The notes under the pieces were generated by a model, which worked only from the letters and a program-made list of their open reading frames with translations, searched no databases and was not told where the DNA came from. Made by a program: the position numbers and the translations under genes. This document shows, piece after piece, positions 12,181 through 29,473 of a stretch of DNA of 64,000 nucleotides. Within the stretch, counting starts at the first letter, position 1. Every line of letters starts with the position of its first letter. This DNA is from Bilabrum cf. latius (Eukaryota): NCBI GenBank assembly GCA_965178125.1, contig OZ237756.1:496001-560000 (forward strand), read 5' to 3'.

Positions 12181-13391
12181 GGGGGGGGACAACAGGTGGT
12201 GGTAGGTACACCAAGCGTTGAGGACGAGGGCTACGCTACGCTCGCCCCTCCTTTAAAGGCATATTTAGCAACTCAAGTGTTTCCCCTATAAACCTAAATG
12301 ATTTCACAGGGGGTTCCCCAAGAACCCCTATAGAACCCCTCTATGTACCCATTTTCAGATATAAAATTTACTCCTACGAAGTAGGGGTAAATTGAAGAAT
12401 TCTAATATTTAACCCCCTTATAAACTCTAACAGCAAAGACAGAGATGTTTTAGTAAAGTAGGAAAAAATGAAGAAATTAACCAAGTGTCCAAAATATCTC
12501 TGTGTTTGCTGTAGGAACGGAAGGATGAATTCCCAAGAGACCAAGAGACCAACCGAGGATTTCCCCAAGTGAACAAGGTATTTTATCAAGAGACCGAGGT
12601 ATGTTCCCAAGCGACAAACCGATAAACCGACCGATGAACCGACCGATGAACCGACCAAGGATTTCCCAAGGATTTCCCAAGGATTTCCCAAGGATTTCCC
12701 AAGGATTTCCCAAGCGACTAAATTGTTCTCCGAAGCAACCAAACCGATTACCCAAGAGATGATACATTATAAGGAAAACGAAAACGTATTTTAAGTCCCT
12801 TTGGAAAAGTCCCCCAAAAATTGAGAGATTTTACAGGTCAATTTTAAGAGACTTAGAAAGAATAAATATATTTTCCAATTAAAATTAAATGTTGTAATTC
12901 CTATGATGCCACCATAAAAATTAAAAGGAAAACGAAAACGTATTTTAAGTCCCTTTCGAAAAGTCCCCAAAAAACTTGTCAATTTTACTAATGCTAACGC
13001 CGAATGGGGTTCGGGGTTGATGTGGCGATGCGTTCGAGACTCGAACACAGGCTCCGGTCTACCAACGCGAGGTTGCAACCGCCAGTGCGACCAGCAGCTT
13101 GCGAGGCATTCCCTCGTCTCCTTCCTTAGGGAAGGGGGCGGGGCAGCGCGGCAGTGGCCGTTCCGGCTCATGCCGTTGTTTTGTTTAGTATTTATGTTGA
13201 TTGAACTGGAGACGAAGTGTGTCGAGTAAGCATCGTTGCATCAAGGTCAATTATAAGAGACTTAGAAAAAATAAATTAAGTTCCCTATTAAAATTAAATG
13301 TTGTAATTCCTATGATGCCACCATAAAAATTAAAAGGAAAATAAAAAACAAATTATAATTGTTTTCCAATTAAAAACACAAAAATTGATTG
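12181..13391 (+). repeat. Left terminal inverted repeat (~956 bp plus a 255-bp insertion)
   Basis: Reverse complement of 28519-29473 apart from the 12989-13243 insertion, about two substitutions seen by eye and a G8 versus C7 terminal run. Confidence 0.95.
12989..13243. mobile_element. GC-rich 255-bp secondary insertion in the left TIR (short copy)
   Basis: Absent from the right TIR, whose empty site reads AATTTTAC|AGGTCAAT. Both arms match 26851-27212. No target-site duplication. Confidence 0.85.
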
Positions 13392-13407
13392 CCTAAAGTG
13401 GAAATGT

Positions 13408-13441
13408 CGTACCTTAAGCATAACTTACGTAGTCTATAGTA
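13408..13441 (+). promoter_or_regulatory. Putative bipartite virophage promoter CGTACCTTAAG...CGTAxTCTATA
   Basis: The same arrangement recurs upstream of the helicase (~14826-14858) and pPolB (~16541-16572). Confidence 0.65.
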
Positions 13442-13452
13442 CAACCACATAA

Positions 13453-13692
13453 ATGGCAAAATCACAAAAGGAACTCGAGAATTACATCTTGGCGACCAAA
13501 GAATGTCTTAAATCAGTCCCGTTTATTACAACACGAGAAGCATACGATATGGCCAAAAAGTACCTTGAATTTACAAAGACTATTATTTGGATTAATTATG
13601 ATGATGACGATGACCTGCTTGCTGACTTTGAGGAAGCTAAAGATTTAAGTCAAATTGTAGTTGAATGGCACGAAAGTACCAAAACCAAATGA
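13453..13692 (+). CDS. Virophage hypothetical protein (79 aa)
   Basis: ATG to TGA ORF preceded by the conserved CGTACCTTAAG...TCTATAG motif. Confidence 0.65.
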   Translation: MAKSQKELENYILATKECLKSVPFITTREAYDMAKKYLEFTKTIIWINYDDDDDLLADFEEAKDLSQIVVEWHESTKTK

Positions 13693-13757
13693 TTTTTTCC
13701 CAAGAATTATTTTCCCTACTTTACAAAAGTAAGGAGAATGATACAACTATATAGCAA

Positions 13758-14813
13758 ATGAGTAGCGCCTTTGAAAGAATATTACAATCCCTAAACATTT
13801 ATCCCAACAGTCGTATTGTAAATTTAATGAAACGACCAAAACGACCCAAAGGAGTAAATCGACCCCACGTAAATGTACCAGAACCTCACCAAGTGGTACA
13901 AATGGATTTATTATCATTACCCCACGACAATAATTATAAATACGCATTAACTGCTATTGATTTACATACAAAGTAGGCCGATGCTGAACCGCTCAAAACC
14001 AAGCGTTAGAACGAAGTATTAAAGGCATCAAAAAAGATTTTCAATCGTGGTAATGTCCAGAAACCGCAGCACCGTTTGGAAATAGATAATGGAAAAGAAT
14101 TTAACGCTTTACAAAGATATTTAGAAGAGACCGATGTATTTGTACGAAGAAATAAAGCAGGTCGCCACCGACAACAGGCATTAGTGGAAAACCTAAATAA
14201 AACGTTGGGAAAAGCCATATTTACCCTATAGAACGTTAATGAGTTAAATACAGGTAATGAAAGCGTAGAATGGGTGGATATGCTTCCAAACATCATTGAA
14301 AACTATAATGAATATCAACTAGAAAAGTATATAGAAGAACCACCTTTACCCCCAGAACACTTCGACTTTACGTAGTGTAAAGGAGACGCTTGTAATATAT
14401 TGGAAGAGGGTACAAGAGTTCGTATACCATTAGAAGAACCCAGAAAGGCTACAAATTTACAGCAAAAATTATCCGGAAATTTTCGTGCTTCAGATTTACG
14501 CTATAATCCAGAAATCAAAACGATAACTAAAGTATTATTAAGACCGAGACAACCACCCTTATATGTTGTGGATTAGGATGATTTAGTGGCTTATCCAAAA
14601 GAGGAATTACAGATTATCGACTTTGATAATGAGGACAATAACCGAGATGCTCAGACAATCTTTCTCCCAAAAAAAATAAAATCCGAGAACGAAACAGAAT
14701 ATCAAATAGAATGGAAAGATTTTCCAGAACCAGAACATTGGACGTGGGAACCAAAGAATAAAATCCAAGAAATTGCTCCTAATTTAATTTTGGAGTGGGA
14801 TATAGAAAATTGA
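13758..14813 (+). CDS. Retroviral-type (rve, DDE) integrase with C-terminal chromodomain (351 aa with TAG=Gln)
   Basis: QMDLL, IDNGKEF and VENLNKTL supply the DDE triad. YQIEWKDFPEPEHWTWEP is a chromodomain motif. Five in-frame TAGs; ends at TGA. Confidence 0.93.
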
Positions 14814-14870
14814 GATGCCCCGTATCGTACCTTAAGGATTATTTTCGTATTCTATAGTACAACAACAAAA

Positions 14871-16533
14871 ATGTCATTCACTCTGCCGACTAAAGCGTAT
14901 TCGTCAAAAAGCCTTATGGACCTATGTAATGCCGGAAAACAAGAGGAATGTATTCAATACCTTAAACAATACTTCTACCGCACCCACGAACAAGGTGGCG
15001 GGGTGTATTTTCTAATAGCATCTGAATTAAATCGGAATAACATAAGTGATGACGAACCCCAGAAACCAGTCTGGTAGTTCCTTACGAATAAAAATATTAC
15101 TGAAAATTACCTGATTGGGGGACACTGTATTTACGCGATTGTGGGCAACAAAAGAGTAAAGACTTGGTCAGCACGAGACTGGTTCTTAAATGAGAATACC
15201 GACGTATTTACGATTGTAAGAAAATTCAATTCACCTACCGTTGATTACTGACAATCAAACAATTAACGTTATGGGTTCACCTATACTTACACGGGAAAAC
15301 TGTGGAAACATAGAGGATTTAACCGAAGACGCAAAAGCAGGCGCGACTATGATTTACGAACATATCCAGAAGGTGTGGACTTCAGAAGACAAAGAATAGT
15401 GTGATTTTGTGATGAAGTGGTTGGCTCACGTTATTGTGGGCGGAAAGAAGTTGGGTACAGCACTATATTTGAAATCTCCACAAGGAACTGGTAAATCGAT
15501 GATTATTACCTTCCTTATGAGAAAACTACTCGGATATACCCTCACACTATAGACGCTTACACACAAGATGCTTCAACCCGACGCCTTCAACTCAATTCTG
15601 GACGGGAAACTATTAGTCAATTTTAATGAAATTCCAAAAGCCTCGCCAACTATTTGGGACGCCATGTAGGCAACACTAAGAAATCTTATTACGGAAAAAC
15701 ACTTTTCCTGTAATGAGAAGTTTGTCAAATCCGAAAGTCGTCCGAATACATTCAATTTAATTATTGATACGAATGATAGTCCAATCAAAATCACCGAGGA
15801 AATCCGTAGATATTGTGTTTTGGATGTGAATACATCTAAGAAAGGAGACAAAGAATACTTTACAACACTAAAACGTTTTACAGAAAATCCAGAAGTGGCT
15901 AAGGCATTTTATATGTTATTGGTTGAAATCTATGATACATCACCAGACTTTACAGGACAATTCGCACCAAAATCAAAGAATTTTTACAAAGGAATTCTTG
16001 ATGGCGCACATCCGGTTTTAAAAATTCTAAAAGAAGAGTGGCTGGACGAAGGCAGAGATTTTAAAATGACAGTCTTGGAATTCCGCAATTATCTAAAGCA
16101 GGAACTGAACGGTAGAGTGAAGAACCTTGGTACACCTATGATTAAAACACTATTGTCAGAGGTAGGTGTTCATTCAACGATGAACAAATAGAGAAAACAA
16201 GAATTTAATGTGAAACACGCAGACTTACTAAAAGGCTTCCAATCTAAATTTTAGGCACTTCGTCATTCTGCTGAGATGGAAAAAGCAAAATCCGAGGTAG
16301 ATGTTCTTCGAGAGTAGATTAGAGAACTACAGAAACAAGTCGCATAGCAGTAGGAAACGATTGAATAGTTGGAATTAGAAAAGGAGATTACACCGACGGA
16401 ACAAGTCCATAAGAAAATCCAGAAACAGCTGAGTGTTGAGAATAGCATCGCTATTCAAAAATGGATAAAAGAGAACCCACCAAAGAACAAAAAAGGAAAA
16501 CTTTCCAAATTCCTCTGTAAAATTGAGAAGTGA
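14871..16533 (+). CDS. Superfamily 3 (D5-like) helicase with a +1 frameshift near 15245
   Basis: Walker A SPQGTGKS, Walker B LLVNFNE, motif C NLIIDTN and IRRY, then a C-terminal coiled coil with several TAGs. The first frame stops at TGA 15249-15251 and the helicase continues in the +1 frame to TGA 16533. Confidence 0.88.
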
Positions 16534-16590
16534 GTGAGTTCGTACCTTAAGAATAATTATCGTATTCTATAATATAATAGATACTATAGA

Positions 16591-18432
16591 ATGCCCGAAA
16601 TCGATTTTACGGAACCCCAAAGAACCAAATTGCGTCTTAATGGGAAACCAATATGGAGTATGCGATTTGAGAGCGAGGACCTTATCACCGTAAAAAATGT
16701 CTTGGAATTTATTCGTGATTACGACGATGGTGGTGAAAATCCGTTTGATGACTTTAAATTTAAGGTGAATATCAATTACCAAGATACAGGTTGGCGAACA
16801 CGAAGCACTTGGATTACTACAGATGATTTAGAAAATCAAGATAGTTTATGGGCGGGCTACGAAGACGACGATGACGACGAATATAGAAAATTGAATTCTT
16901 TTGAACTACTGCTTATTAGAAAGCCAGAACCAGAAGGCGGTGCTGACGAACATAACGATTGTTTATATAACGCTATAAAACAGGCTTTTCCTTTTTCAGT
17001 TGGTCGTAAGGTAAATGTAAAGAACGCAAAAGGCAAATGGAAAACTACTATTAAAAGAATGTCATAGTCCGACCTGAAAGAATTCTTGATAATTGGGCGT
17101 GATGACCCCGTTGATTACAGAAGAATACCAGAGATAGAAGACGAACTAGAAATACGTATTAACGTTGTGGGCGACTTTGAATACACATCTGGAAAAACTC
17201 ATTTTGACCGTCTTCTAACTGTATCATTAACAAATGGGCATTACAAGTATGTTCCCCCCATTAGTTAGAAAGAATTATTTACACCGCCGTCTAAAGAACC
17301 GTGTACGCTAATTACCCGCTTGTATCAATCCGAGAATTCTTATTTACTATTTGATGGAGACCGTGAGTATCAATCAGAAGGCATTACATCAGTTTCCAAG
17401 GATAAATTCATCTTTGAAGTCAAGTCCAAGGAAGAACTAAGAACAAAACACGAAGAACGGATGAAAAATGTAAGGGCATTAGCGAAGGAGACGGGTGGAT
17501 TTATGGATTTATCACGATTTATGTTTAGAACATCCCTATTTGTAAAGTCGTATTTCAGTAAGTTTTCCAAACTTTACCCTGCCGACCCGATTGACCGAAT
17601 GGAAGCACTTTGGATATCAAGAGCATCCGGTGGTGGATTGAATTGGGCAAACAAGGATACTACATTAAAAAACGCATACCAGTACGATATTAACTCATTT
17701 TATCCAAGTATTATGAAGGGTACATTTACATTTCCGGTTAGAAGGGGAACGTTCGTACAATTTAAAGTACCATCCAGTGGGTTCTATCCGTACGGCATTT
17801 TTAGGGTACGTATTGAAAATCTCAATTCTAAATTAGTACAAAAAAGAAAAAACAATTATTATACCCAATATGATATTAACCGAGCGATTGAGACGGGTGC
17901 TTAGGTGTCCCTAATTGAAGACGGTGAAGCCAACGCTTTACTTTACGATGAGACAACAAGGGTGAAGGCAAATGGACTGTTCAAAACGATGATTGAGCGA
18001 TTGTACGGTTATAAAAAATAGGGATTGAAGTGTGCGAAGGAGATACTAAATAATATTTGGGGTTCTCTATGTTAGAAAAACACAATCACAAAAACACTCC
18101 GAGATGGTGATTGTATGAATTTTAGACAATTAAAGAACGCGTATCCTAAAGCATCTGGACGACTTGTATCGGGTATACTATATGACGAAGAGTACGATTA
18201 CAAAACAGCCTACGCAAGAATGGGCCCCTTTCTGACTGGACTTGGACGAAGTAAATTGTCCAAAATGATTGAGCCATATCTTGAAAACATTCACTATGTC
18301 AACACGGATGGTTTCATTAGTGAGAAAGAATTACCTCTAAAGTTATCAACGAACCTTGGGGGTATGAAGTTGGAGCAATCAGGTGAATGTCAAATTATTC
18401 ACAGTAAGAAGAAAATTTTTAGAAAAGATTGA
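16591..18432 (+). CDS. Protein-primed family B DNA polymerase with N-terminal OTU-like region (613 aa with TAG=Gln)
   Basis: Motif A YDINSFYPS, motif B KEILNNIWG and motif C YVNTDGF. ORFs at 16591, 17086, 17320 and 18115 are all in one frame and are joined through TAGs. Confidence 0.92.
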
Positions 18433-18488
18433 CCAAAGCACCGCAGTTTACCGGCGGAACGGCATAAAAGTGTTTAGAAAAGATTGAA

Positions 18489-18761
18489 TTAAATAGTCTG
18501 CTTTTCCTTAAGCTTCTAAATTTCCTATCGCAAACTATCAAGTTCATCCATTATGTTAATTTGTTCCCTTTTTGTGTCTTCCTCTTTTTGAAGCCAATCA
18601 AGGTGTTTTTTTGTTCTACAATGATGTGATTTATTGTACTTCTTATATACGCCTCCACACGAGCATTGTATCTATTCTCCAAGTTTTTCCTTGTTTTTCC
18701 GGTAGTATTCACGGGCATACAGCTTATCCTGTTCTTTTCTTTCTGAATGACTGAGTGTCAT
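18489..18761 (-). CDS. Small zinc-finger protein (90 aa)
   Basis: YAREYYRKNKEK...CSCGGVY..NKSHHCRTKKH. Three in-frame TAGs, TAA stop and an upstream TCTATAG. Confidence 0.75.
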
Positions 18762-18797
18762 TTTTGTATTCTATAGTATTATACTATAGACTTAGAT

Positions 18798-20081
18798 TTA
18801 AGTATCGTAGGCAAATATTTTCCAAGCCTACTTAAGTGCTGTCTTCTTGGATATTCCTTTTTCTCTTAAAATGGACGCCATTTTCATCACTCTTGAACGT
18901 TTGGTTTCACACTGACATTGACCTCCAAATATTTCCAGATACATACCCGATACTGGGTCATTCGTATGCGAATGGATTTCTTTCATAATTGGTTTTCCAA
19001 CTGTTTTAGTTGCTAAATCCCAACCTTCCTTAAAATCTTGTCCAAAATCCCTTTCTGTGTTCTACTTATGTTTTTTCTAATTTTTCATTAAGGCGTTTCT
19101 GACATCTTCCGGTAAATCATTTAAACCTCTCCCAAACCATTTGGAAAAATAACCAGCCACGTCAGTAGCAGCATTAGCCACTCTCTTAGTAAATCCCGAT
19201 ACACTCTTAGCAATACTCTCTACATCCTACATAATAAATTGGTTTAAGGGTGGTGTCAAAAACCCATTTGTGCGCAGAACATCCTAAATGAACTTTTGAC
19301 AATTCAACGAGAAAGCACGGTACTGATAAAAGTTGTATTCTCCAATTTTCTGTAAAGTGGTCTCAAATAATTCCCTAACTGTTTTCTGAGGTTTTCCATT
19401 TATATTTACTTCCATAGTTTGAGTTTTCTTGTTGGTGGAAAATCGTGGGGACAAATTAACCCTCTCATTCTTCTCAAGATAAATCTTTTTTCCACCTCCA
19501 AGGTTCAATTCTAAGGCTAAATGGAAGAAATCATTATATCCGTGTTTATTTTTTAACTTTTTCATTTTCCCAAGGGTAATCCAGTTAAGCAACCGATTAA
19601 TCGCGCCACTAATAGGGGTTCTAATTACTTTCATAGCAATAATTGTCCTATCCCCGTACTGTTGAAGATTTCTCTGGACTTCGTTCGTATTTCCATACAC
19701 TACTCCACCCTTAAGCTGTTGCGCCAGCTAACTGCGCCGAGAGGGGGTGCTTCGCGGACCATCTTTAAGCTGGCTTCGCGGACCATCTTTTAAATACTAA
19801 TGAAGTGTGTTGGATTGTGTAGGTTTCTTCTAGGATTTCTTTTTTGGTTTTCCTTTTGTTCCCACACCATCTTTAAGCTGTTGCGCCAGCTAACTGCGCC
19901 GAGAGGGGGTGCTTCGCACACCATCTTCAAACTTAATTGCTTTTTCAAGGGCCTCTTTAGAATAAGGGAATTCACTTTTCCATGTCCTTGTTGTTTTACT
20001 CTTAGGTTCTTTGACACTAATGTACGTCTTAACAAAACCAGAATTCATTTTTCCGCCACTAAGTGAATAAAAACTATCCAT
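18798..20081 (-). CDS. Protein with permuted papain-fold (PPPDE/LRAT-like) peptidase domain (427 aa)
   Basis: His in FFHLAL precedes Cys in YRAFSLNCQKFI. One frame through TAGs from ATG 20081 to TAA 18798. Confidence 0.7.
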
Positions 20082-20107: not shown

Positions 20108-20725
20108 TCATAGACGAGAACCAAGACCAAATGTTTTACGGACGAATTCCTCCAGTTGCTAAAAGGATGAATAGACACAGTACTAACTCTAATGTAATCC
20201 AGCGATTAAATTCGTTCTTGAGCGTTCCACAGACAATAAGTCCCCCGATTTTTTACCCTCACGGATTTCCTCAAAAAGACTGTGAGAAGGCACACACACA
20301 AAAATTGAACTTTCCTTAAATAAATCTTTCGCTAATTCCAACGAACCAACCATAACTATCAGACGTCTGGATTTCTTCGTGAGCCAATCCGCTTTAATTT
20401 TTTCATACACTAATCTTGATTGGGAATAATAAAAGAGGCGGTGGGTGCTTTCATCACCATCAACCAACATCTTTTCCATCTTTTGCTTTTCCTACCCTGA
20501 AATTTGAGCATTTACACACTCGTCTAAATCAATAATTAGCGTATCCTTATCCACCGCTTCTAGGGAACGACATAACGTAGTTTTACCGCTTCCTTTTGGA
20601 ACAACCACGCACGATTTCTGTTTCTAAGTTCCGTCTTTCGTCCACCAAGAATACAGACACTTGCTTCCTGTATAAGCTAAAGGGGCTAAAGTCCCAGCAA
20701 CCATTACAGCAGTTGATACTGACAT
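20108..20725 (-). CDS. P-loop NTPase / nucleotide-kinase-like protein (205 aa)
   Basis: Walker A VPKGSGKTT and LIIDLD. In-frame TAGs; ends at TGA 20108. Confidence 0.75.
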
Positions 20726-20780: not shown

Positions 20781-22541
20781 TCACTGCTACAACATTGCGA
20801 GAAGTTGATTGCGAGAAAGAGATTTACCACCTGTTAAGCCCGAGCCTAACTTGGCACCTGTTAAGCCCTTGCCTTTCTTGGTAGTTCTCCTTGGCTTCCT
20901 ACCCATTCCCGCCATTTTAGCGATATCTGCTCCGGTTTCTATTGCTTTTGTAGCATCCCCTAAAAACTTCTTAGCTTTCCCAGACTTAACCCAATCAGCG
21001 GTTTTGTGTGCGAACTTTTTTAAGGCGTGTCTAATCTTTTTCCCAAGACCGCGACCGTGTAGTCCTGATAATTGACTTTCATATACAACGGGTAGTTTAG
21101 AGGCGGACAAAACGTCTGCCCTTGAGATGACACCCTGCTAATACTCGAACTTAGACCCATCAATCAAATTTAATACTCCTTCGTATAATCCAATCACAAC
21201 ACACTACACATTATCGTAGCCCACATCATCATTATTCTTCACTCGTAGGGTTATAGACAGTTGGTTAGACCCGTTGCTACCATTTGTCTAATCCACATCT
21301 AAGCTTAAGTCCTTGGCGGGGTCAATACATAACAGACCACCTGATAGCACCCTATCCCCGAATTTACGCATAGCCCATTCATTATATTGCTATTCAAGTC
21401 CGTTGCTTCTGGATAAGTCCCATAACTGCTGTGGCGATGCGTCGGCGAGTAATCCACTATGGTTATTCATCTCTATACTAATTCCATCAATTGCCATGAA
21501 TGTGTTTCCCTAATCTACTGAAAGGGTTGTAGGTGAGCGACGGGCAAACACAAATAAACGACTTGGAACTGAATTACTAAGCTTAATATTGTTATTGTAA
21601 AGAGTTGCTGTAGTACCTGCGGCAATTGTTGGACTATGACTTTGGGTATACGAAGTCATCTCAAAAATATCATACGAGACCTATTTAGGAAGCACAAATC
21701 CTGTTTTAGGTGTAATCTATTCAAGGTATAGGACTGGTTCTTGGACATCTACCGACTAAATGGTAGCAGTTAAGCCCTATTGTGGAATACGAGACCACAC
21801 GGTTCTACTCAGTTGAGACCAATTAATATTTAAGGAGAGTGTTTGAATTCCGTATATAGCCGTTTGTTCCTATTTACTTTCGTAGTGGAAAGGTGGGCAT
21901 AGTACTGCCTCAGTGCATTCAAAAACAAGAACACGATTTTGAGTTTGACCTGCGGGTACATCAGTATTATCCATTTGATACAAATTGTAAAATCCACTTC
22001 CTCGGGCTGGTTGGTCCTAAAGCACGTCCTCATACGAAGCAAGAGCGTTATTCGTAGACTAACTCATCATCGCGTATGAAGGCACATTATCGCGTCTATA
22101 CACACTATCAAGGCAATTCACACGGTGGACATCATCATCTAGTAAATGGGACAGAGCGTCCATTAGTTCACCGTTGTTCTGGGTATAACGAAGGTTATTA
22201 ATACCTACTGTCTGTGTTGCGATGGAGCGATTAAGTGGATAGGAGCGTGGAGCATCGTAATCTGGTCTAAAGGGTGCTAGACCACCTGCGGTTTGATTAT
22301 TCACGGAAAAGGTGATAGAAAATCGGCATGAGACATAGGCGCGGCGGCACAAACCTACACCTGAAGGCATACTAATATTCCAGTTGACCCCGCTGTTGTA
22401 GTTTCCGGCAGACCCGGAGGGGTTATATTTACGGAAAGTCCGGTTCTCATAACCTTCTTGAACTTCATACGGCTTCGGTTGTACATCTAGTGTTGCGGGT
22501 GATACTTTGACTGGCTGAAGGGCAAAGGTATTCAATGACAT
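20781..22541 (-). CDS. Virophage major capsid protein (586 aa with TAG=Gln)
   Basis: Virophage-MCP-like segments APRSYPL, VPSRLFVFARR, NHSGLLADASPQQLWDLSRSNGL and LCIDPAKDL, plus a basic Gly-rich C-terminal tail. About 13 in-frame TAGs; ends at TGA. Confidence 0.92.
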
Positions 22542-22582: not shown

Positions 22583-22600
22583 ATGGGGTCGCGTCCCCAT
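22583..22600. terminator. GC-rich intergenic hairpin between penton and MCP
   Basis: ATGGGG-TCGCGT-CCCCAT in AT-rich DNA just downstream of the penton stop. Confidence 0.4.
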
Positions 22601-22619
22601 CCGACGAATTATCATTTTT

Positions 22620-23735
22620 TCAAAGTCCTTTCCGTTTCTTAAATAAAAACTTCACACTCACACTTCCGTGGCGTAAATAAAGAGGTCTTAGATTTGAATA
22701 ATTGTCTTTCCAATAAAGATTAAACTAAATCCTATCTACTGAATGTGTATCTAAAAAATCAATTTCGTGGAGAATATGGGGCTAATACTAAAGAACCTAC
22801 TAATTTACTGTTTCTGTATCATCTAATACACAATCCATATCCACTAATAAACTCTCGGTTCCTGAACCTGAATTTTGAACTGTATTAGTGGATTGTCCAT
22901 AGGCGGATTTCTAGGATATTGCCTCACTCCTCACTGGAAGACTTGAAGATGTGAAAACTATTCCGCGAAAAATCTAAAACTACACTAAACTCCCTCGTTC
23001 CTAGGTCATCATTAATCTGTAGTCTCCCGTTGGGTTTCCCTCGAAGTATGCCTAAGGTTCATATTTTCCAACAGAAGAGCCATCATCGAATAAAACATTG
23101 GTTCCTAGGGTTTTGAATAGAATACTGGCGTATAAGTCGTCATCTTGGATATCCATTCGTTCCATAGGAAAACCCGTCATCAGTTCGTTAAGGGCTTCAT
23201 TCAACACTAATTTAAATTTTTGTCCTGAGTTTTCCTCGTCGTAATCGGGATTTGCTACTAAACTGAACTTTCCATCTTTAAAGAGTAAAACCGGAACTGA
23301 TGTAATATCCGCTGATAAAGCATTCTATATGGTTTCGTTGAATAAATCAACAAAATGCTACACGGAATACATATAATAATAAGGAACAAACTACATAGGA
23401 TTGGAAAAAGATGGTTGGTTTTCCCCTGTTAACTAGGGTCTCCACTGAATGCTTGAGGTCCACAAACTTACTCCGTCTTCATCTGTAATGCTTATTCTAT
23501 ACACCGTTTGATTAGGATTTGAAGATGGATTTTTCACTTTATCGGTTTCTATGTGTGGAACCCATAAAGGTATTGAATTGGTGCTTATGGAAAACCGGAA
23601 TACTGACATCGTATAATCACCAACATCCTTATCTAATAATGGCTACTTGCGGGTTTCGCTATAGGTCGCTGGTTGGAAAGTATCTTCGTTATTTCGTATG
23701 TTTGCGGTAATGTAAAATCGGTCTGGAGAACTCAT
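22620..23735 (-). CDS. Virophage minor capsid (penton) protein (371 aa)
   Basis: N-terminal YSETRK(Q)PLL...YTMSVFRFSISTNSIPLWVP and C-terminal YWKD...SVKFLFKK, directly upstream of MCP. Missing from the ORF track because of TAGs. Confidence 0.88.
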
Positions 23736-23791
23736 TTTACTATAGACGTTTATAATTATGGGGTGGGTTTGATTACTTTTCTAAAGTATAA

Positions 23792-24283
23792 TTAAGATGG
23801 TGTAATAAGTGAACCTGACACTAAGGATTTCCAACTAGATGTAGAAGAACTGCCAATCGCCACATAGACATCGTTGTCGCTTCCATTATACACTAAAGCG
23901 CCCTTGAACTTTCGCTCTGCTGACGTATTAATAGGGGTAGAAGCGTCAGCCAATGTAGCTCCAGCAACCTCACTCAGCCCAACAACACCCTCTTGAGAAG
24001 TCTTGAATGAACCAACTAGTGAAATATCGCATCTTTCTCCTTCTTCGCTCATACTGAACTGACAACCAGCAGACGCTCCGTTTTTTCCAAACCGTAGAAC
24101 AGTTTCACCCCACTCCATATAAGGCTCTCCGTCTTTGAATTCAATACTTGGATTGCCTATGACTGCTCCCGTAGAGTTAGTAATTGCGGACACTTTAATT
24201 GCGTCGCTACTCACAACATTACACGTAATAGTTTGAGACATAAGGTCTAGACTGTTCTTAGATAGAAGATTTGAGACTGACAT
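23792..24283 (-). CDS. Virophage hypothetical protein, possibly virion-associated (163 aa)
   Basis: ATG to TAA ORF (MSVSNLLSKN...) in the structural gene cluster with an upstream TATA-like motif. Confidence 0.7.
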   Translation of the reverse strand: MSVSNLLSKNSLDLMSQTITCNVVSSDAIKVSAITNSTGAVIGNPSIEFKDGEPYMEWGETVLRFGKNGASAGCQFSMSEEGERCDISLVGSFKTSQEGVVGLSEVAGATLADASTPINTSAERKFKGALVYNGSDNDVYVAIGSSSTSSWKSLVSGSLITPS

Positions 24284-24348
24284 TTTATAGTATATCCACA
24301 GATATAATTTTTATCAGGTTGCCAAAAGATGTATATAAGAGGTTTTGG

Positions 24349-25530
24349 TCAATCTTTTCCTAAAAGATGTAATAGTTCCATAGCAACCTAATGATGAATA
24401 TTTTTAGTGCTTCCTTTTACTTTCTTGGCTACATTCATTGCTGTATCATAGATAATTCTTTTTCCACCTGTTAATCCTTTCCCCTTTTTTGGTTTTCCAC
24501 TTTCTTCTACAGTCATTGCGCGTGATGGTGGGTCTTCTAAATCAGGCTACTACATTCCATAGGGCGGACTAAACCCCGTAAATCGCTACACAGGTCTAGT
24601 AGCACGTTTTCCAATTCCCTGCTCAATTTCCATCCTACTCGGCATATCATAGTACTCACCAGTTTCTGGGTCCCACGCCCCCGGAGTGCTTCCTTGCGGT
24701 AGTGGTCTTTCATTGCTCGCTGCGGCTAATATGGCATCTAAGTCTTTTGATGTTTTTGACGCATTACTACTTGAACCCTCTTGAAAATGCTAAAACATAT
24801 TTGTCTGCCCCTGTGATGTTCTTTGTGAGAAATTCTTTCCCTATTCTAAATCCCACGCTATTCGTTGTTTTTCAGTTAAGGGTCTGTCTTGTTGTATTCT
24901 TTCTCTGGCTCTTTCCAATAACTATTTATACGCACCCGAAGACCTTTTTGGAAGCTGTACTTGTGTTGGAGCGGAAAACGTGTTTCTTCTTGTTGTTCGA
25001 GCAGGTGTTTGTAAAGATGTTGGCTACTAATCAATTCCCAACATTCCCTACGGTATTCGTTGTCCGGATGCCTCCTATATAACTTTCCCTAATTCTAAGA
25101 GTTGTTTTCTATCCTCAGCTGGAACTCTCTGCAGTCCTTCGTATCCTTTCCTTTGAAACCTCTCTATGTTAACGTATTGACGGGCGAGTTGTTGCTTCAT
25201 TTGTGGAGACATATTGATATTACCAACAAAATCCTTCAATGCTTTCACTGCTGGACTTACATTTTTACCCTCAATAATACCTTTCATTATACCAGATATT
25301 GACTTAGATATGATTTCCTCGTTGCTTTGGTCTGCCTATTTTCTCTACGCTGGAGTTCCATACCTTCCACTTTCTTTTAATCGTTCAATTTTTGCCCTTT
25401 TCCTTATAAAATCACTATATTCTGTTTCTAAATCTACGTCGTCCCTTGCCTGTAAATCTAACATTTTAGCATTGTCCAGTTCCCTTTCTAGGGCTTGCTG
25501 AATAAGAGCATTCACTTTAGCAGTTTTCAT
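24349..25530 (-). CDS. Virophage hypothetical protein, putative core protein (393 aa)
   Basis: Single frame through many TAGs to TGA 24349. Contains KKGKGLTGGK, which is shared with the MCP tail. Confidence 0.75.
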
Positions 25531-25595
25531 TTACTATAAGCTTTTATAAAAAGCTTGACCAAAAAATAAAAAATAAAGTGTTTGTGTATAGTATA

Positions 25596-25835
25596 ATGGA
25601 TATTGATAAGTGGATTATATAGAGAACCAAACAACTCGCGCTATAGAAAGAACAAGACGCTTTAAATAGAGTTAAAAACCATCATATTAAAGTTGGAAAA
25701 GGCCGTAGTAAGCCTAAGCGGAAAGTGAGCGCCAAAATGAAACGCCGCAATAAACTTGTAAAAATGGTGATGTAGTAGACTGGTATGAGTTTACCTCAAG
25801 CAAGTCGGTATATAAGAGAATAGAATATTATTTAA
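25596..25835 (+). CDS. Small basic virophage protein (79 aa)
   Basis: RRNKLVKMVM(Q)(Q)TGMSLPQASRYIRE(Q)N resembles a short helical motif I recognise from virophage proteins. Stop is TAA. Confidence 0.7.
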
Positions 25836-25864
25836 AGAAACTTTTATAACAAGTTTGACCAAAA

Positions 25865-26767
25865 TTATAGAAGGTAAGCCTACCTTTCTCCAATTAAATA
25901 CCTCGGGTAATTCCTATGAACACAAACCCACCGAGAAGGCATTTTTAGGACTTTAGAGATTTCTTGTTTCTCAAGTCCAATATAATTTTTTAGTAAATAC
26001 CTTAGAGAATGTGCGGAAGAACACTAAGGGAATATAACGAACTTATGACTTTCCGCAAGAATAATACGGGTACTTTTATAGTTGGTGGATAAATGACTTG
26101 TGATTAATACTGAAGTATTTGAGTGGCGACCAACCTATAATATTTCATCCTGTAAATGATTGAGGGCTTCCCTTAACTTCTTATCTTTGATTGTATCAAT
26201 ATCATCCAAGATTACTAAGGCGTCCCTTAATTCCTAATGAATATCAATCGGGTTCTCCACCAGTTCCTCATTTAAAATAATCCTTTTCAGTCCTTTCACT
26301 TCATCTAAGACTTTATCCTACTATACTCGTGAAAATAAAATAATTCTCCTGTTTGGAAACATTCTATGATAATTCTTAGCATACTTGGAAACCCAAGTAG
26401 ACTTCCCAGCACCTGATGGTGCGGTGATATATATTACCTCTCTTCCGTTTAAATTTGGTAATGATTGGAATTCACCCTATTTTAATGTAATCTCTTTATG
26501 TTTCTTTTCCTATGCTTTTTCATACAAGTATTTGATGTCTTCGTCTAGGGGTTCGACCTGTTTGATTAAGTGTCGTGCTAATAAATCCATTTTCCTCTGC
26601 GGAAATCGTTTCCCTGTAAGTGATGATACTTGAAAATCCTAAAATGACATACTATCATCTCCAAATTGGTTGTCTGTGTTTTCCGCCGTGTATAAAATAC
26701 GTTTTCCGTGAGTGTCATATGCGATGGGTGTTGATTTTGTAGTTTCCTTCCAAGAAAAATGAGCCAT
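25865..26767 (-). CDS. FtsK/HerA-type genome packaging ATPase (300 aa)
   Basis: Walker A APSGAGKS, Walker B LVILDDID, then L(Q)VGRH, ITSH and SRWVCV. Stop is TAA. Confidence 0.92.
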
Positions 26768-26850
26768 TTTAGTGTATTTACTATATGTTTTTATTTTTTC
26801 TAAAGTGTTTTGTCTTTTTGTTGAAAACTTATTTTGAATGATTGTCTTTT

Positions 26851-27212
26851 TAATGCTAACGCCGAATGGGGTTCGGGGTTGATGTGGCGATGCGTTCGAG
26901 ACTCGAACACAGGCTCCGGTCTACCAACGCGAGGTTGCAACCGCCAGTGCGACCAGCAGCTTGCGAGGCATTCCCTCGTCTCCTTCCTTAGGGAAGGGGG
27001 CGGGGCAGCGCGGCAGTGGCCGTTCCGGCTCATGCCGTTGTTTTGTCCCACCCTCCTCTCCCTGGTTTGGCTGATAGTGGAGCGGACGCGCAACCGACGG
27101 TTCTGGTGCTTTCCAACCGACGTCGGCGCGCGGTCTGCTCAGATTGGCCATGCTTTGCCCATGTCTTGATTGAACTGGAGACGAAGTGTGTCGAGTAAGC
27201 ATCGTTGCATCA
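26851..27212. mobile_element. GC-rich 362-bp secondary insertion (long copy) between the ATPase and protease genes
   Basis: Same arms as 12989-13243 plus a 119-bp hairpin-forming centre. AATGCTA occurs at both junctions. Confidence 0.8.
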
Positions 27213-27318
27213 ATGCTATCCACAAATTCCAAAACGGATTTTGTAGAAATACTTCTACGCTTAAATAGTGGTTAAGAGAATTCATCTCCCCCAATATATG
27301 TTTCTATAATAAATATAT

Positions 27319-27855
27319 ATGGATTATGCTCTTAGCGATAGTGATATTCGTGTTCTCCTCCAAACTCCACCAAATATTAAGGGGTTTCTTCCTACGTCGG
27401 TAAACATCGTTCCATATACAGAATTAGGATAGTACAATAGTATTGATGGATTATTTAGTCGTTGTAATTGTTGTATCATTCTATACCAAGAAGAAATAAA
27501 TTCTGGACACTGGGTGTGCTTATTTAAGCGTAATAAAACAATATACTTCTTTGACAGTTATGGAATTCGTCCTGATAGGCAATAGCACACAATGAGTGAA
27601 AGCGTGCGGAAACGTTTTTATGAAGACCCTGAGTTAATATATTTAATGTATCATTCTCCGTATAAGATTGACTATAACCCATATTAGTTTTAGGCGGATG
27701 GAATGGATATAGCAACCTGCGGGAGACATTGTATAGTTCGTCTTTGGAATAGGGGAAAAAACGCTGATTAGTATAAAAAGTGGGTGGATAAGGTTTGTAA
27801 GAAACATACATTAAATCCTGATGAATTAGTGTATTTATTGACGTGTCATTTATGA
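27319..27855 (+). CDS. Adenain/Ulp1-like capsid maturation cysteine protease (178 aa)
   Basis: GHWVCL (His), YFFDSYG (Asp) and Y(Q)F(Q)ADGMDIATCGRHC (oxyanion Gln and Cys). Stop is TGA. Confidence 0.92.
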
Positions 27856-28134
27856 ACTCCAAAGGTAAAAATGTGAGAAGAACTTTGGGGTTCTTGGTTT
27901 TACTTCGATACCGTGTCGTTTGAAGTATCTAAATTGGCGGTCCGTATCTAAATGATTTAAATGGCTGTAATACCCTATTCTATCGTAAAATTGCTAATAC
28001 CGCCTATCACCAAACGATGTAATATATTCATCATTTTCGTCAAAAACATCATACTTCTTATTCTTGCGTCTTGAGGGTGCTTTAAATAGAAAATTCTCAA
28101 CAACCTTTTCAAAATCGTAGGTATGTAGCTTCAT
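27850..28134 (-). CDS. Small viral protein, DUF5754-like (94 aa)
   Basis: SRRKNKKYDV...FGDRRY(Q)QFYD...HLD..R..YFKRH...PKFFSHFYLW resembles a motif common in giant viruses and virophages. The family name is from memory. Confidence 0.7.
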
Positions 28135-28518
28135 AAGTACTTTATAGTATAGTCTTCTACTTATATCAAAGCCCGAGCTTCTTGTATTCCTTTAGTTTTT
28201 CGTGTAATTTTTTCCAAATACGTGGATTAATTTGCTTGACAATATGCTCTATCATCAACTCCTTTAAAAATGGGTTCATTTACTATAGTGATATAGAATG
28301 GTCTTAATTATCATCTCTTGGGAAATCCTTGGAAAATTAATTTTAATATTCTATAATTTGTTTTTTATTTTCCTTTTAATTTTTATGGTGGCATCATAGG
28401 AATTACAACATTTATTTTTAATCTTTGAAAAAGATATCAAAAGAGCGGAGGGCAAAGCCCGAGCATCTTGGGAAATTAATTTTAATATTTCTTTGTATCC
28501 TATATTGTCAAAATTTTT

Positions 28519-29473
28519 CAATCAATTTTTGTGTTTTTAATTGGAAAACAATTATAATTTGTTTTTTATTTTCCTTTTAATTTTTATGGTGGCATCATAG
28601 GAATTACAACATTTAATTTTAATAGGGAACTTAATTTATTTTTTCTAAGTCTCTTATAATTGACCTGTAAAATTGACAAGTTTTTTGGGGACTTTTCGAA
28701 AGGGACTTAAAATACGTTTTCGTTTTCCTTTTAATTTTTATGGTGGCATCATAGGAATTACAACATTTAATTTTAATTGGAAAATATATTTATTCTTTCT
28801 AAGTCTCTTAAAATTGACCTGTAAAATCTCTCAATTTTTGGGGGACTTTTCCAAAGGGACTTAAAATACGTTTTCGTTTTCCTTATAATGTATCATCTCT
28901 TGGGTAATCGGTTTGGTTGCTTCGGAGAACAATTTAGTCGCTTGGGAAATCCTTGGGAAATCCTTGGGAAATCCTTGGGAAATCCTTGGGAAATCCTTGG
29001 TCGGTTCATCGGTCGGTTCATCGGTCGGTTTATCGGTTTGTCGCTTGGGAACATACCTCGGTCTCTTGATAAAATACCTTGTTCTCTTGGGGAAATCCTC
29101 GGTTGGTCTCTTGGTCTCTTGGGAATTCATCCTTCCGTTCCTACAGCAAACACAGAGATATTTTGGACACTTGGTTAATTTCTTCATTTTTTCCTACTTT
29201 ACTAAAACATCTCTGTCTTTGCTGTTAGAGTTTATAAGGGGGTTAAATATTAGAATTCTTCAATTTACCCCTACTTCGTAGGAGTAAATTTTATATCTGA
29301 AAATGGGTACATAGAGGGGTTCTATAGGGGTTCTTGGGGAACCCCCTGTGAAATCATTTAGGTTTATAGGGGAAACACTTGAGTTGCTAAATATGCCTTT
29401 AAAGGAGGGGCGAGCGTAGCGTAGCCCTCGTCCTAAACGCTTGGTGTACCTACCACCACCTGTTGTCCCCCCC
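28519..29473 (-). repeat. Right terminal inverted repeat (955 bp)
   Basis: Inverted match to 12181-13391. Ends in TGTTGTCCCCCCC followed by the ACAGC duplication. Confidence 0.95.

What the first reader, a model, noticed from the sequence alone, without database searches (positions are those of the whole stretch)
12181..29473. Endogenous virophage whose genes use the host's reassigned code (UAG=Gln)
Seen: nearly every large element gene is broken by TAG in the standard code but becomes one ORF ending in TAA or TGA when TAG is read through (integrase 5 TAGs, MCP about 13, also penton, ATPase, protease and pPolB). The protease's conserved oxyanion-hole Gln before the catalytic Cys is TAG (27691-27693). 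The helicase coiled coil reads LRE*IRELQKQVA*Q*ETIE*LEL. Established: virophages depend on host translation and on a giant helper virus. Inference: this lineage has adapted to a recoded host, so it could not be expressed in standard-code hosts, and its helper giant virus must also cope with UAG=Gln. I know of no described recoded virophage but cannot verify novelty.
Basis: partly seen in the sequence, partly recalled or inferred. Interest (0 to 1): 0.97.

Follow-up and report, generated by a model that had tools for sequence, protein, structure and literature searches.

The report
Integrated virophage that reads UAG as glutamine
A 17-kb virophage is integrated in a GC-rich protist chromosome, and both it and the host use the stop codon UAG as an ordinary glutamine codon, so this virus lineage (and probably its giant-virus helper) is tied to hosts with this rare genetic code.

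Summary
Window 12182-29473 is a low-GC island (0.37-0.40 against about 0.60). It has 955-nt inverted terminal repeats and a 5-bp target-site duplication. It carries Sputnik-type major capsid and penton genes, a clan-CE cysteine protease, a P-loop ATPase, pPolB, a D5-like helicase and an rve-chromo integrase.

Its 16 ORFs hold 99 in-frame TAG, 0 TAA and 0 TGA. They end in TGA (10) or TAA (6).

TAG means Gln:
- The protease TAG at 27691-27693 sits in a column that is Gln in 148 of 149 representatives.
- Across ten genes, the orthologous codon is Gln as often for TAG (0.38) as for CAA (0.35) or CAG (0.38), against a 0.04 background.
- At invariant Gln columns, TAG, CAG and CAA interchange between lineages.

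Host flank genes also carry in-frame TAG. One is the conserved Gln of the flippase LGQIEY-FSDKT motif.

Five metagenomic relatives (MCP 49-59% identical) need the same code, so this is a recoded clade.

Decay and virus-encoded suppression are rejected.

The principle (endogenous polinton-like elements following a variant host code) is published for Streblomastix. No paper found describes a UAG=Gln virophage.

Host identity and the helper virus remain unknown.

The parts
12176..12180 (.). Left copy of the 5-bp target-site duplication, ACAGC. Base 12181 is one extra G.
   Evidence: Read directly. The same pentamer follows the right end.
12182..12988 (.). Left terminal inverted repeat, outer part.
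   Evidence: I1, 807 nt; 955 nt in all with 2 mismatches.
12989..13243 (+). 255-nt GC-rich (0.56) secondary insertion that interrupts the left TIR. Not part of the virophage.
   Evidence: The right TIR has the uninterrupted site. It folds as a closed rod, z -4.6. There is a second copy at 26851-27212.
13244..13391 (.). Left TIR, inner part.
   Evidence: (I3).
13453..13692 (+). orf79b. No TAG, ends in TGA, overlaps the integrase start.
   Evidence: A promoter-like box lies 18 nt upstream.
13665..14813 (+). Integrase: rve core plus a C-terminal chromodomain. 6 TAG.
   Evidence: Pfam PF00665 1.7e-9 and PF00385 6.7e-6, both above their cut-offs.
14871..15251 (+). orf126. It is the N-terminal part of the helicase protein, cut off in this copy by a 1-nt frameshift at about 15249.
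   Evidence: The relative L004 has one fused 547-aa ORF. The dominant variant contig in runs X1 and X5 lacks 1 nt at 15249.
15271..16533 (+). D5-like (DUF5906/VapE-like) helicase with a C-terminal coiled coil. 9 TAG.
   Evidence: Pfam PF19263 2.3e-15. Coiled-coil string checked.
16591..18432 (+). [quoted passage not shown] 5 TAG.
   Evidence: Pfam PF03175 7.1e-6, 25.6 bits against a cut-off of 25.8. 61% identical ortholog in L004.
18489..18761 (-). orf90. 3 TAG.
   Evidence: Orthologs in L002, L003 and L004.
18798..20081 (-). orf427, function unknown. 9 TAG.
   Evidence: Orthologs in L001-L004.
20108..20725 (-). orf205, a small P-loop protein. 5 TAG.
   Evidence: Weak Pfam AAA_24 hit. Orthologs in all five loci.
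20781..22541 (-). Major capsid protein, virophage (Sputnik V20) type. 13 TAG.
   Evidence: Pfam PF21915 8e-25 and PF22031 1.5e-27. PDB 3j26 1.7e-30.
22620..23735 (-). Penton (minor capsid) protein. 15 TAG.
   Evidence: Pfam PF21507 1.1e-10. 7 of 15 TAG sites are Gln in both P0014 and P0015.
23792..24283 (-). orf163. No TAG.
24349..25530 (-). orf393, a lysine- and glutamine-rich protein. 13 TAG.
   Evidence: Orthologs in L002-L004.
25596..25835 (+). orf79. 5 TAG.
25865..26767 (-). P-loop ATPase, the presumed packaging ATPase, 300 aa. 9 TAG.
   Evidence: Start fixed. 48 homologs, several on contigs of 17-25 kb. All Pfam AAA hits are below cut-off.
26851..27212 (+). Second, longer copy (362 nt) of the GC-rich insertion, between the ATPase and protease genes.
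   Evidence: Contigs in X1 (depth 317.7) and X5 (18.7) join 26850 to 27213 without it.
27319..27855 (+). Clan-CE cysteine protease. 5 TAG, including the invariant Gln125 at 27691-27693.
   Evidence: 2627 homologs. Columns G63, H64, Q125, T133, C134, G135 are invariant. Model pLDDT 96.5. Fold hits are adenain, Ulp1, pS273R and I7L.
27850..28134 (-). orf94. 1 TAG.
13407..13458 (+). First of three 52-nt conserved upstream blocks that end at a start codon (the others are 14825-14876 and 16540-16591). They contain the box TCTATAGTA.
   Evidence: D5. The box lies within 40 nt upstream of 14 of 16 genes, against 3.3% of random windows.
28519..29473 (.). Right terminal inverted repeat, uninterrupted.
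29474..29478 (.). Right copy of the target-site duplication, ACAGC.
1957..4092 (-). Host P4-ATPase (flippase) exon with 3 in-frame TAG. The one at residue 639 is the Gln of LGQIEY-FSDKT.
44368..53481 (-). Host 3037-codon ORF with a PP2C domain. 7 in-frame TAG, one (residue 1364) inside the Pfam PP2C match.

Best explanation
Window 12182-29473 is a virophage genome inserted into the chromosome of a GC-rich, intron-bearing eukaryote by the virophage's own rve-family integrase. The host's cytoplasmic translation reads UAG as glutamine and keeps UAA and UGA as stops. The virophage has no translation machinery, so its genes have drifted with that code. TAG is now an ordinary Gln codon, supplying 99 of its 254 Gln codons. 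14 of its 16 ORFs would be truncated in a standard-code cell.

Shown here:
- the anatomy of the element;
- the meaning of TAG in the element;
- the sense use of TAG in host genes;
- the same code in a clade of environmental relatives;
- purifying selection on the copies.

Inferred:
- The uniform TCTATAGTA-type box in front of nearly every gene is the late promoter of an unknown helper giant virus whose polymerase transcribes the element.
- The host carries a tRNA-Gln(CUA) and an altered eRF1.
- The helper virus is itself compatible with UAG=Gln.
For: Anatomy:
- GC is 0.37-0.40 inside the element and about 0.60 outside.
- TIRs are 955 nt with 2 mismatches.
- ACAGC sits on both sides.
- Pfam gives virophage MCP, penton, rve, chromo, DUF5906 and pPolB.
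- The MCP matches Sputnik V20 at 1.7e-30 and the mavirus MCP at 1.3e-7.
- The protease model hits clan-CE proteases only.

Code in the element:
- Coverage by ORFs of 200 aa or more is 0.04 (standard), 0.80 (TAG sense), 0.16 (TAA sense) and 0.04 (TGA sense).
- In frame there are 99 TAG, 0 TAA and 0 TGA in 4506 codons. Off frame there are 272 TAA and 251 TGA.
- Protease residue 125 (TAG) is Gln in 148 of 149 representatives.
- In the ten-gene codon tally against lineages L003 and L004, the partner codon is Gln for 0.38 of TAG (n=246), 0.35 of CAA and 0.38 of CAG. The background is 0.04, Tyr 0.02, Trp 0.03, Leu 0.01-0.02, Glu 0.08-0.10.
- MCP columns 110, 301, 314, 385 and 398 are all-Gln with TAG, CAG and CAA mixed among lineages.
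- 7 of 15 penton TAG sites are Gln in both P0014 and P0015.

Selection:
- The 40 displayed differences of 271 between copies in the runs touch 38 codons. 24 are synonymous and 14 are not, and none creates TAA or TGA. One is TAG to CAG.

Host:
- ORFs of 3037, 1545 and 1086 codons appear only with TAG as sense.
- The flippase TAG aligns with the Gln of LGQIEYIFSDKT in Drs2p, and the alignment runs across two TAGs.
- A TAG lies inside the PP2C Pfam match.
- Terminators are TGA x8 and TAA x2.
- Position-specific composition continues across TAG but not across real terminators (weak).

Clade:
- All 5 of 5 metagenomic relatives need TAG as sense. Their MCPs hold 3-6 in-frame TAG and 0 TAA or TGA.
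- A distant virophage relative, L006, is open under the standard code. This serves as a negative control.

Promoter:
- All 15 TATAGTA in the window lie in the element, where about 2 are expected.
- The box lies within 40 nt upstream of 14 of 16 genes, against 3.3% of random windows.
- Virophage promoters match those of their giant virus (PMC10945749, passages read).
Against: - No tRNA gene of any kind is in the window. The decoding agent is therefore not seen.
- No whole genome is held. The host-side case rests on one strongly conserved Gln, on ORF continuity and on a weak composition test. Some of the 48 host TAGs counted may lie in introns or UTRs (the five upstream of the Clp1-like ORF, for example).
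- Several TAG columns are not Gln in homologs. Protease residue 89 is Leu in 89 of 149. MCP residue 175 is Tyr or Phe in all relatives.
- ATPase TAG columns are only 0.06 Gln (CAG 0.07, CAA 0.13, background 0.02).
- For L003, reading TAA as sense also opens most of the contig (0.81 against 0.88).
- The database proteins P0004 and P0005 were already translated with TAG=Q, so they are not independent. Without P0005, by my own recount of the columns, MCP TAG columns are 9 of 60 Gln and CAA columns 12 of 78.
- This particular copy has a frameshift and two secondary insertions, so it may not itself be functional.
- Because ORFs were defined by TAA and TGA, a dual use of TAG (sense and occasional stop) cannot be excluded.
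Confidence: 0.9

Rival explanations
1. Virus-autonomous recoding: the host uses the standard code, and the element (or its helper) supplies a suppressor tRNA or release-factor change, as TAG-recoded phages do.
For: The element uses TAG far more heavily than the host flanks: 99 of 254 Gln codons against 48 of 354.
Against: - Host genes in both flanks need TAG as sense, including a conserved flippase Gln and a PP2C domain.
- ARAGORN finds no tRNA in the 64-kb window, element included.
- Rfam finds nothing relevant in 12000-29700.
- The heavier use of TAG fits the element's AT bias.
Confidence: 0.03
2. Decay: the TAGs are nonsense mutations (for instance C-to-T deamination of CAG, RIP-like) in a dead, AT-enriched insertion.
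For: - The element is AT-rich in a GC-rich genome.
- This copy carries a frameshift and two insertions.
- One variant copy has CAG where this copy has TAG.
Against: - No TAA or TGA occurs in 4506 codons, although CAA-to-TAA and TGG-to-TGA changes would accompany such decay.
- Lineages only 49-62% identical in MCP keep all genes open with TAG at different sites.
- Differences between copies are mostly synonymous, 24 of 38 codons.
- TAG encodes an invariant catalytic-site Gln.
- 155 CAA/CAG codons remain.
Confidence: 0.01
3. TAG is a sense codon with another or an ambiguous meaning: Leu, Glu, Lys or Tyr, or context-dependent Gln/stop.
For: - Protease residue 89 is Leu in 89 of 149 representatives.
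- MCP residue 175 is Tyr or Phe in relatives.
- UAG=Leu codes exist (PMC5304391 and PMC11687900, abstracts read).
- The MCP has a TAG two codons before its TGA.
Against: - TAG's substitution profile equals that of CAA and CAG, and differs from Leu, Tyr, Trp, Glu and Lys codons.
- The invariant protease Gln, the flippase Gln and the penton VLQYQP block are all TAG.
Confidence: 0.04
4. Assembly chimera: a free virophage genome was wrongly joined to host contigs.
For: - In run X1, flank contigs stop 29-30 nt inside the TIR. Element contigs have depth about 375-554 against 22-31 for the flanks.
- In run X5, the element is present with almost no flank.
Against: - A 5-bp duplication flanks the exact TIR ends.
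- Contigs in runs of two studies (X1; X7 record 22) contain flank plus the first 29-30 nt of the TIR, so junction words exist in the reads. X1 may be the source sample.
- The depth excess is what multiple copies would give.
Confidence: 0.02

Closest known systems
Mavirus and the endogenous mavirus-like elements (EMALEs) of Cafeteria burkhardae
   Same: - An integrated virophage of about 17-20 kb with long TIRs, rve integrase, pPolB, MCP, penton, ATPase and cysteine protease.
- Many copies per genome.
- A uniform promoter box on every gene, thought to match the helper giant virus.

Source: PMC10945749, passages read. The architecture details are recalled.
   Different: - The MCP is much closer in sequence to Sputnik V20 (1.7e-30) than to the mavirus MCP (1.3e-7, local match only).
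- The genes contain 99 TAG sense codons.
- The host is unidentified.
- The helper virus is unknown.
Sputnik virophage
   Same: The capsid module: MCP and penton match the Sputnik Pfam families, and the MCP matches 3j26.
   Different: - This element has a pPolB plus rve-chromo integrase replication and integration module.
- It is integrated with TIRs and a target-site duplication.
- It uses UAG=Gln.
- Sputnik's own gene content is recalled, not tested here.
Endogenous polinton-like elements of Streblomastix strix (Bellas et al. 2023, PMC10120064)
   Same: Integrated double-jelly-roll virus elements whose genes follow the host's non-standard nuclear code. The authors read this as a long-term association (passage read).
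   Different: - There, both TAA and TAG encode Gln. The MCPs belong to a 'Metamonada' polinton-like group, not the virophage type.
- Here, only TAG is reassigned and TAA is a working terminator (6 of 16 element genes).
- That paper's supplements could not be seen.
UAG-only reassignment to Gln: Iotanema spirale, Hartmannula sinica, Trochilia petrani
   Same: UAG=Gln with UAA (and UGA) kept as stops (PMC5304391 and PMC11687900, abstracts read).
   Different: - Those are an anaerobic fornicate and two ciliates.
- This host has about 60% GC, long low-complexity proteins, introns and long contigs.
- No virus or virophage is reported for those hosts in the abstracts read.
TAG-recoded bacteriophages (crAss-like and others)
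   Same: Viral genes with in-frame TAG read as Gln.
   Different: In those phages the recoding belongs to the virus and is not shared with the host (recalled; PMC11502894, only notes alternative codes in Crassvirales). Here the host genes share the code, and no tRNA is encoded in the element.

Membership tests
Virophages (four-gene morphogenetic core; the definition is recalled) | Virophage-type double jelly-roll major capsid protein | tested here: met
   Pfam PF21915 8.1e-25 and PF22031 1.5e-27. Sputnik V20 3j26 1.7e-30 over residues 28-489.
Virophages (four-gene morphogenetic core; the definition is recalled) | Penton (minor capsid) protein | tested here: met
   Pfam PF21507 V18-19, 1.1e-10, above its cut-off.
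Virophages (four-gene morphogenetic core; the definition is recalled) | Clan-CE (adenain/Ulp1-like) cysteine protease | tested here: met
   Model pLDDT 96.5. The 12 PDB matches with E at or below 0.001 are clan-CE proteases; TM-scores are modest at 0.34-0.49. H64, Q125 and C134 are invariant.
Virophages (four-gene morphogenetic core; the definition is recalled) | FtsK/HerA-type packaging ATPase | tested here: inconclusive
   It is a P-loop protein, but its Pfam AAA hits are all below cut-off. Its 48 homologs carry no Pfam family. The position next to the protease and the contig sizes of 17-25 kb fit. The fold was not tested.
Virophages (four-gene morphogenetic core; the definition is recalled) | Replication dependent on a giant virus | not testable with these tools
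   Only indirect: a uniform promoter-like box in front of 14 of 16 genes.
Polintons/Mavericks | pPolB plus retrovirus-like integrase ('by definition', abstract of PMC5499653 as listed), with TIRs and a short target-site duplication | tested here: met
   - rve 1.7e-9.
- pPolB 7.1e-6, which is 0.2 bits under the Pfam cut-off.
- TIRs.
- 5-bp duplication.
Polintons/Mavericks | Polinton-type capsid proteins | tested here: not met
   MCP and penton match the virophage (Sputnik) families, and no polinton family appeared. It is therefore filed as a virophage with a polinton-like replication module.
Nuclear code with UAG=Gln only (as in NCBI table 15) | TAG is a sense codon in the element and in the host | tested here: met
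Nuclear code with UAG=Gln only (as in NCBI table 15) | The residue encoded by TAG is Gln | tested here: met
Nuclear code with UAG=Gln only (as in NCBI table 15) | TAA and TGA remain stops | tested here: met
   - In frame, 0 of 4506 codons are TAA or TGA, against 272 TAA and 251 TGA off frame.
- Terminators are TGA x10 and TAA x6 in the element, and TGA x8 and TAA x2 in the host.
- Reading TAA or TGA as sense opens nothing.
Nuclear code with UAG=Gln only (as in NCBI table 15) | A tRNA-Gln with anticodon CUA, and an altered eRF1 | not testable with these tools
   No tRNA is in the window. No genome is held.

The most novel reading that the evidence does not exclude
A whole clade of virophages has co-evolved with a eukaryotic lineage that reads UAG as Gln and is not one of the three described UAG=Gln lineages. 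The clade comprises at least three lineages, down to about 50% MCP identity, seen in several metagenomes. The code acts as a host-range lock. These virophages cannot be expressed in standard-code protists. Their helper giant viruses must belong to a matching, still undescribed group that never uses TAG as a terminator. If so, in-frame TAG becomes a marker that links virophage, helper virus and host in metagenomes.
Probability: 0.4. Interest if true: 0.8.

Novelty: new member of a known kind. Interest (0 to 1): 0.62.

Why it matters
- Viruses that lack translation machinery must obey the host's code. A non-standard code is therefore both a barrier to host switching and a built-in label of who infects whom.
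- Here the label ties a virophage clade to a rare UAG-only Gln code.
- It predicts a matching giant virus, which can be searched for by its avoidance of TAG terminators and by the TCTATAGTA-type promoter box.
- It flags the host as a probable further case of decoupled UAG/UAA reassignment.
- It also warns that standard-code gene calling makes such elements look like dead pseudogenes.

Tried and rejected

- Whole-genome access: none is held.
- Atlas search with a Clp1-like host ORF only says 'eukaryote, Clp1/NOL9 family'. The host lineage stays unknown.

**Searches with no useful hit**
- MCP as a single protein against viral contigs: no relative.
- MCP alignment against viral contigs: one distant standard-code relative, L006.
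- MCP against the phage record collection: no match.
- The wide MCP alignment A1 was too divergent for a pattern scan.
- PDB sequence search with the protease: only spurious summed WD40 hits, discarded.
- Rfam on the element: one chance-level hit.
- A 43-nt piece of the GC-rich insert: absent from viral contigs.

**Weak or uninformative tests**
- The GC3 periodicity test of the host frame is only weakly informative, because the host has little GC3 excess.
- ATPase TAG columns are uninformative, because the family has few conserved Gln.

**Sequencing runs**
- No RNA holder is listed.
- X7 and X9 are only guessed to be RNA. They cover the flanks, the TIR ends and the GC-rich insert but not the virophage core. 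This says nothing about expression or absence.

**Literature**
- Searches for a recoded virophage were. Passages were read in PMC10120064, PMC8204192, PMC13524828, PMC11502894 and PMC12220804. None describes a virophage with UAG=Gln.
- The exact TCTA late-promoter motif of CroV and mavirus could not be found in the library. It is recalled.
- Supplements were closed. The supplementary tables of PMC10120064 may list further recoded elements.

Full report
**1. What is there**

The window has a sharp low-GC island (0.37-0.40) between flanks of about 0.60 GC.

- Its ends are inverted repeats. The arms 12182-12988 and 28667-29473, then 13244-13391 and 28519-28666, make 955 nt with 2 mismatches once a 255-nt insert in the left arm is set aside.
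- The pentamer ACAGC lies directly outside both ends, with one extra G at 12181. This is the kind of short target-site duplication an rve-family integrase leaves.

Read with TAG as a sense codon, the island holds 16 ORFs:
- an integrase with rve core and chromodomain;
- a D5-like helicase (DUF5906);
- a protein-primed family B polymerase, 0.2 bits under the Pfam cut-off;
- a major capsid protein matching both Sputnik MCP domains;
- a penton matching Sputnik V18/19 (all);
- a 300-aa P-loop ATPase;
- a 178-aa protease.

The MCP matches Sputnik V20 (3j26) at 1.7e-30 over nearly its whole length. It matches the mavirus MCP only locally, at 1.3e-7.

The protease has 2627 homologs. A model built on 61 sequences (pLDDT 96.5) matches only clan-CE cysteine proteases: adenovirus protease, Ulp1/SENP, ASFV pS273R, poxvirus I7L and bacterial CE deubiquitylases. 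TM-scores are modest at 0.34-0.49.

So this is a virophage by its morphogenetic module. It has a polinton/mavirus-like replication and integration module, and it is integrated.

**2. Is the TAG pattern more than chance?**

In the core 13400-28200, ORFs of 200 aa or more cover:
- 0.04 of the sequence under the standard code;
- 0.80 with TAG as sense;
- 0.16 with TAA as sense;
- 0.04 with TGA as sense.

The 16 ORFs (4506 codons) contain 99 TAG, 0 TAA and 0 TGA in frame. The two other frames of the same genes contain 150 TAG, 272 TAA and 251 TGA. The zeros follow partly from how the ORFs were defined. The length of the ORFs and the domain matches that run across TAGs do not.

- 14 of 16 ORFs contain TAG. 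The first TAG falls at codon 9 to 161, so a standard-code cell would truncate all 14.
- Terminators are TGA (10) and TAA (6).
- The integrase has 6 TAGs, not 5.

**3. What does TAG encode?**

*Protease.* The TAG at 27691-27693 is residue 125. That column is Gln in 148 of 149 representatives and is one of seven invariant columns, with G63, H64, T133, C134, G135 and D168. The order His, Asp, Gln, Cys is that of clan CE. The role of that Gln in the oxyanion hole is recalled knowledge, not tested here.

*Relatives.* Five metagenomic loci carry MCPs 49-59% identical, and most of the other genes too. All five need TAG as sense. Their MCPs hold 3-6 in-frame TAG and no TAA or TGA. For L003, reading TAA as sense also opens most of the contig (0.81 against 0.88), so there the coverage test alone does not discriminate.

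*Codon alignment of the MCP.* All-Gln columns use TAG, CAG and CAA interchangeably among three lineages: columns 110, 301, 314, 385 and 398.

*Ten-gene tally.* Over ten genes and three lineages, the fraction of orthologous codons that are Gln is:

| Codon class | Partner is Gln |
|---|---|
| TAG (n=246) | 0.38 |
| CAA | 0.35 |
| CAG | 0.38 |
| All non-Gln codons | 0.04 |
| Tyr codons | 0.02 |
| Trp | 0.03 |
| Leu | 0.01-0.02 |
| Glu | 0.08-0.10 |
| Lys | 0.06-0.08 |

*Penton.* 7 of 15 TAG sites are Gln in both homologs P0014 and P0015, including the conserved VLQYQP block.

*Results that do not point to Gln.*
- Protease residue 89 is Leu in 89 of 149 representatives.
- MCP residue 175 is Tyr or Phe in all relatives.
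- ATPase TAG columns are variable polar positions with only 0.06 Gln (CAG 0.07, CAA 0.13, background 0.02).

These are what variable positions look like, and CAA and CAG columns behave the same way.

*Independence of the database proteins.* P0004 and P0005 turned out to be translations made with TAG=Q, so they are not independent. Without P0005, by my own recount of the columns, MCP TAG columns are 9 of 60 Gln and CAA columns 12 of 78. Whether P0006-P0010, P0014 and P0015 come from recoded contigs is unknown.

**4. Is it the host's code?**

With TAG as sense, the flanks give ORFs of 3037, 1545 and 1086 codons with 7, 16 and 8 TAGs. These contain a PP2C domain, a PTEN-like phosphatase domain and a coiled coil.

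- One TAG (residue 1364) lies inside the PP2C match.
- A P4-ATPase exon (1957-4092, minus strand) aligns with yeast Drs2p across two TAGs. The TAG at residue 639 is the Gln of LGQIEY-FSDKT, just before the catalytic aspartate.
- Ten host ORFs end in TGA (8) or TAA (2). They hold 48 TAG in 9656 codons. Some of these, such as the five upstream of the Clp1-like ORF, may be non-coding.
- Codon-position composition is the same before and after TAGs (0.66/0.57/0.62 and 0.65/0.55/0.64). It changes after real terminators (0.43/0.61/0.53, n=9). This is a weak test, because the host has little GC3 excess.
- No tRNA gene is in the window.

TAG makes up 48 of 354 Gln codons in these host ORFs and 99 of 254 in the element. 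This fits the element's AT bias.

The host is a eukaryote (Clp1/NOL9 family hit; introns; long low-complexity proteins). Its lineage could not be determined.

**5. Rivals**

- *Decay by C-to-T mutation.* Excluded. There is no TAA or TGA. Divergent lineages keep every gene open with TAG at different sites. Differences between near-identical copies in the runs are mostly synonymous: 24 of the 38 codons touched by the 40 displayed differences of 271, with one TAG to CAG, one TAG to AAG, and none creating TAA or TGA.
- *A virus-encoded suppressor in a standard-code host.* Excluded by the host genes and by the lack of any tRNA.
- *Another meaning of TAG.* Excluded by the substitution profile and the invariant Gln sites. 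An occasional dual use as a stop cannot be excluded.
- *Mis-assembly.* Unlikely, given the target-site duplication and the contigs that contain flank plus the first 29-30 nt of the TIR in runs of two studies. One of those may be the source sample.

**6. How it most likely works**

The integrase inserted the linear genome, leaving the 5-bp duplication.

Every gene except two that follow another gene closely has a TATA[GCA]TA box, with core TCTATAGTA, 8-27 nt before its ATG.
- 13 of 16 genes were found, and the ATPase was added once its start was corrected.
- Only 3.3% of random 40-nt windows contain the box.
- All 15 exact TATAGTA in the 64-kb window lie in the element, where about 2 are expected.
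- The relatives carry the box too.

Virophage promoters match those of their giant virus, and different endogenous virophage types carry different motifs (PMC10945749, passages read). The box is therefore most likely the late promoter of an unknown helper. That it resembles the TCTA motif of CroV and mavirus is recalled, not verified.

Transcripts would be translated by host ribosomes, which read UAG as Gln. This last step, and the helper's compatibility with the code, are inferences.

**7. State of this copy and copy number**

This copy has a 1-nt frameshift at about 15249 that splits a helicase protein which is one 547-aa ORF in L004. The dominant variant contig in runs X1 and X5 lacks that nucleotide.

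It also carries two copies of a GC-rich, rod-folding insertion:
- 12989-13243 and 26851-27212;
- most copies lack the second one, as shown by the joint 26850 to 27213 in X1 and X5.

In X1, contigs over the element have depths of about 375-554, against 22-31 for the flank contigs. In X5, the element is present with almost no flank. This is compatible with many copies or with free virophage DNA. Contig depth cannot decide between them.

**8. Comparison and novelty**

- Architecture is that of mavirus-like endogenous virophages. The capsid is Sputnik-like.
- The principle that integrated polinton-like elements follow a variant host code is published for Streblomastix strix, where TAA and TAG are both Gln (PMC10120064).
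- Giant-virus MAGs that annotate better under alternative codes were reported in 2026, with no mention of virophages (PMC13524828).
- UAG-only Gln codes are described for Iotanema spirale and two phyllopharyngean ciliates (abstracts).
- Four searches found no paper describing a virophage with UAG=Gln. Supplements were closed.

I therefore rate it a new member of a known kind. It has added value as a recoded virophage clade, and as a pointer to an unidentified UAG=Gln host and a matching giant virus.

Noticed in passing
window 12989-13243 and 26851-27212: A GC-rich (0.56-0.60) insertion is present twice in the element, as a 255-nt form and a 362-nt form that share 196 + 48 nt.
- It is inserted precisely, with no obvious duplication.
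- It folds as a closed rod with paired ends (z -4.6).
- There is no Rfam match and no match in viral contigs.
- It lies at very high contig depth in runs X7 (1000-1800) and X9 (100-217), where it continues into other sequence.

It is probably a high-copy MITE-like host element or an abundant RNA.
   Followed up: partly
window about 15249: A 1-nt frameshift splits orf126 from the helicase. The relative L004 has one fused 547-aa ORF, and the dominant variant contig in runs X1 and X5 lacks this nucleotide. The lesion is therefore specific to this copy, or it is an assembly error.
   Followed up: yes
proteins P0004 and P0005: The public protein collection already holds full-length translations of these MCPs with Gln at every TAG. 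Some gene-calling pipeline has therefore already read such contigs with a TAG-sense code.
   Followed up: partly
window 20781-20900 (MCP C-terminus) and 24349-24480 (orf393 C-terminus): Both proteins carry a KKGKGLTG(A/G)K motif near the C-terminus. These may be processing sites for the cysteine protease.
   Followed up: no
window 20784-20789: The MCP ends ...Gln(TAG)-Gln(CAG)-TGA, so a TAG lies two codons before the real terminator.
   Followed up: no
window 10500-30400 in runs X1 and X5: Contigs over the element are 12-25 times deeper than the flank contigs in X1. In X5 they are present with almost no flank. This means either many copies or insertion sites, or free virophage DNA.
   Followed up: partly
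window 12655-12714, 12766-12988, 28563-28870: The TIRs contain internal tandem repeats: 154-nt units and an 11-nt CCAAGGATTTC array.
   Followed up: no
window 44368-53481 (minus strand): A host ORF of 3037 codons whose PP2C domain seems split. By my reading of the translation, the N-terminal half lies roughly 600 or more residues upstream of the Pfam-matched C-terminal half (residues 1347-1488), separated by low-complexity Gly/Ser/Ala-rich sequence.
   Followed up: no
L006 (viral contig, 15950 nt held): A distant virophage relative (MCP 26% identical, GC 0.29) that uses the standard code yet also carries 9 TATAGTA motifs.
   Followed up: no
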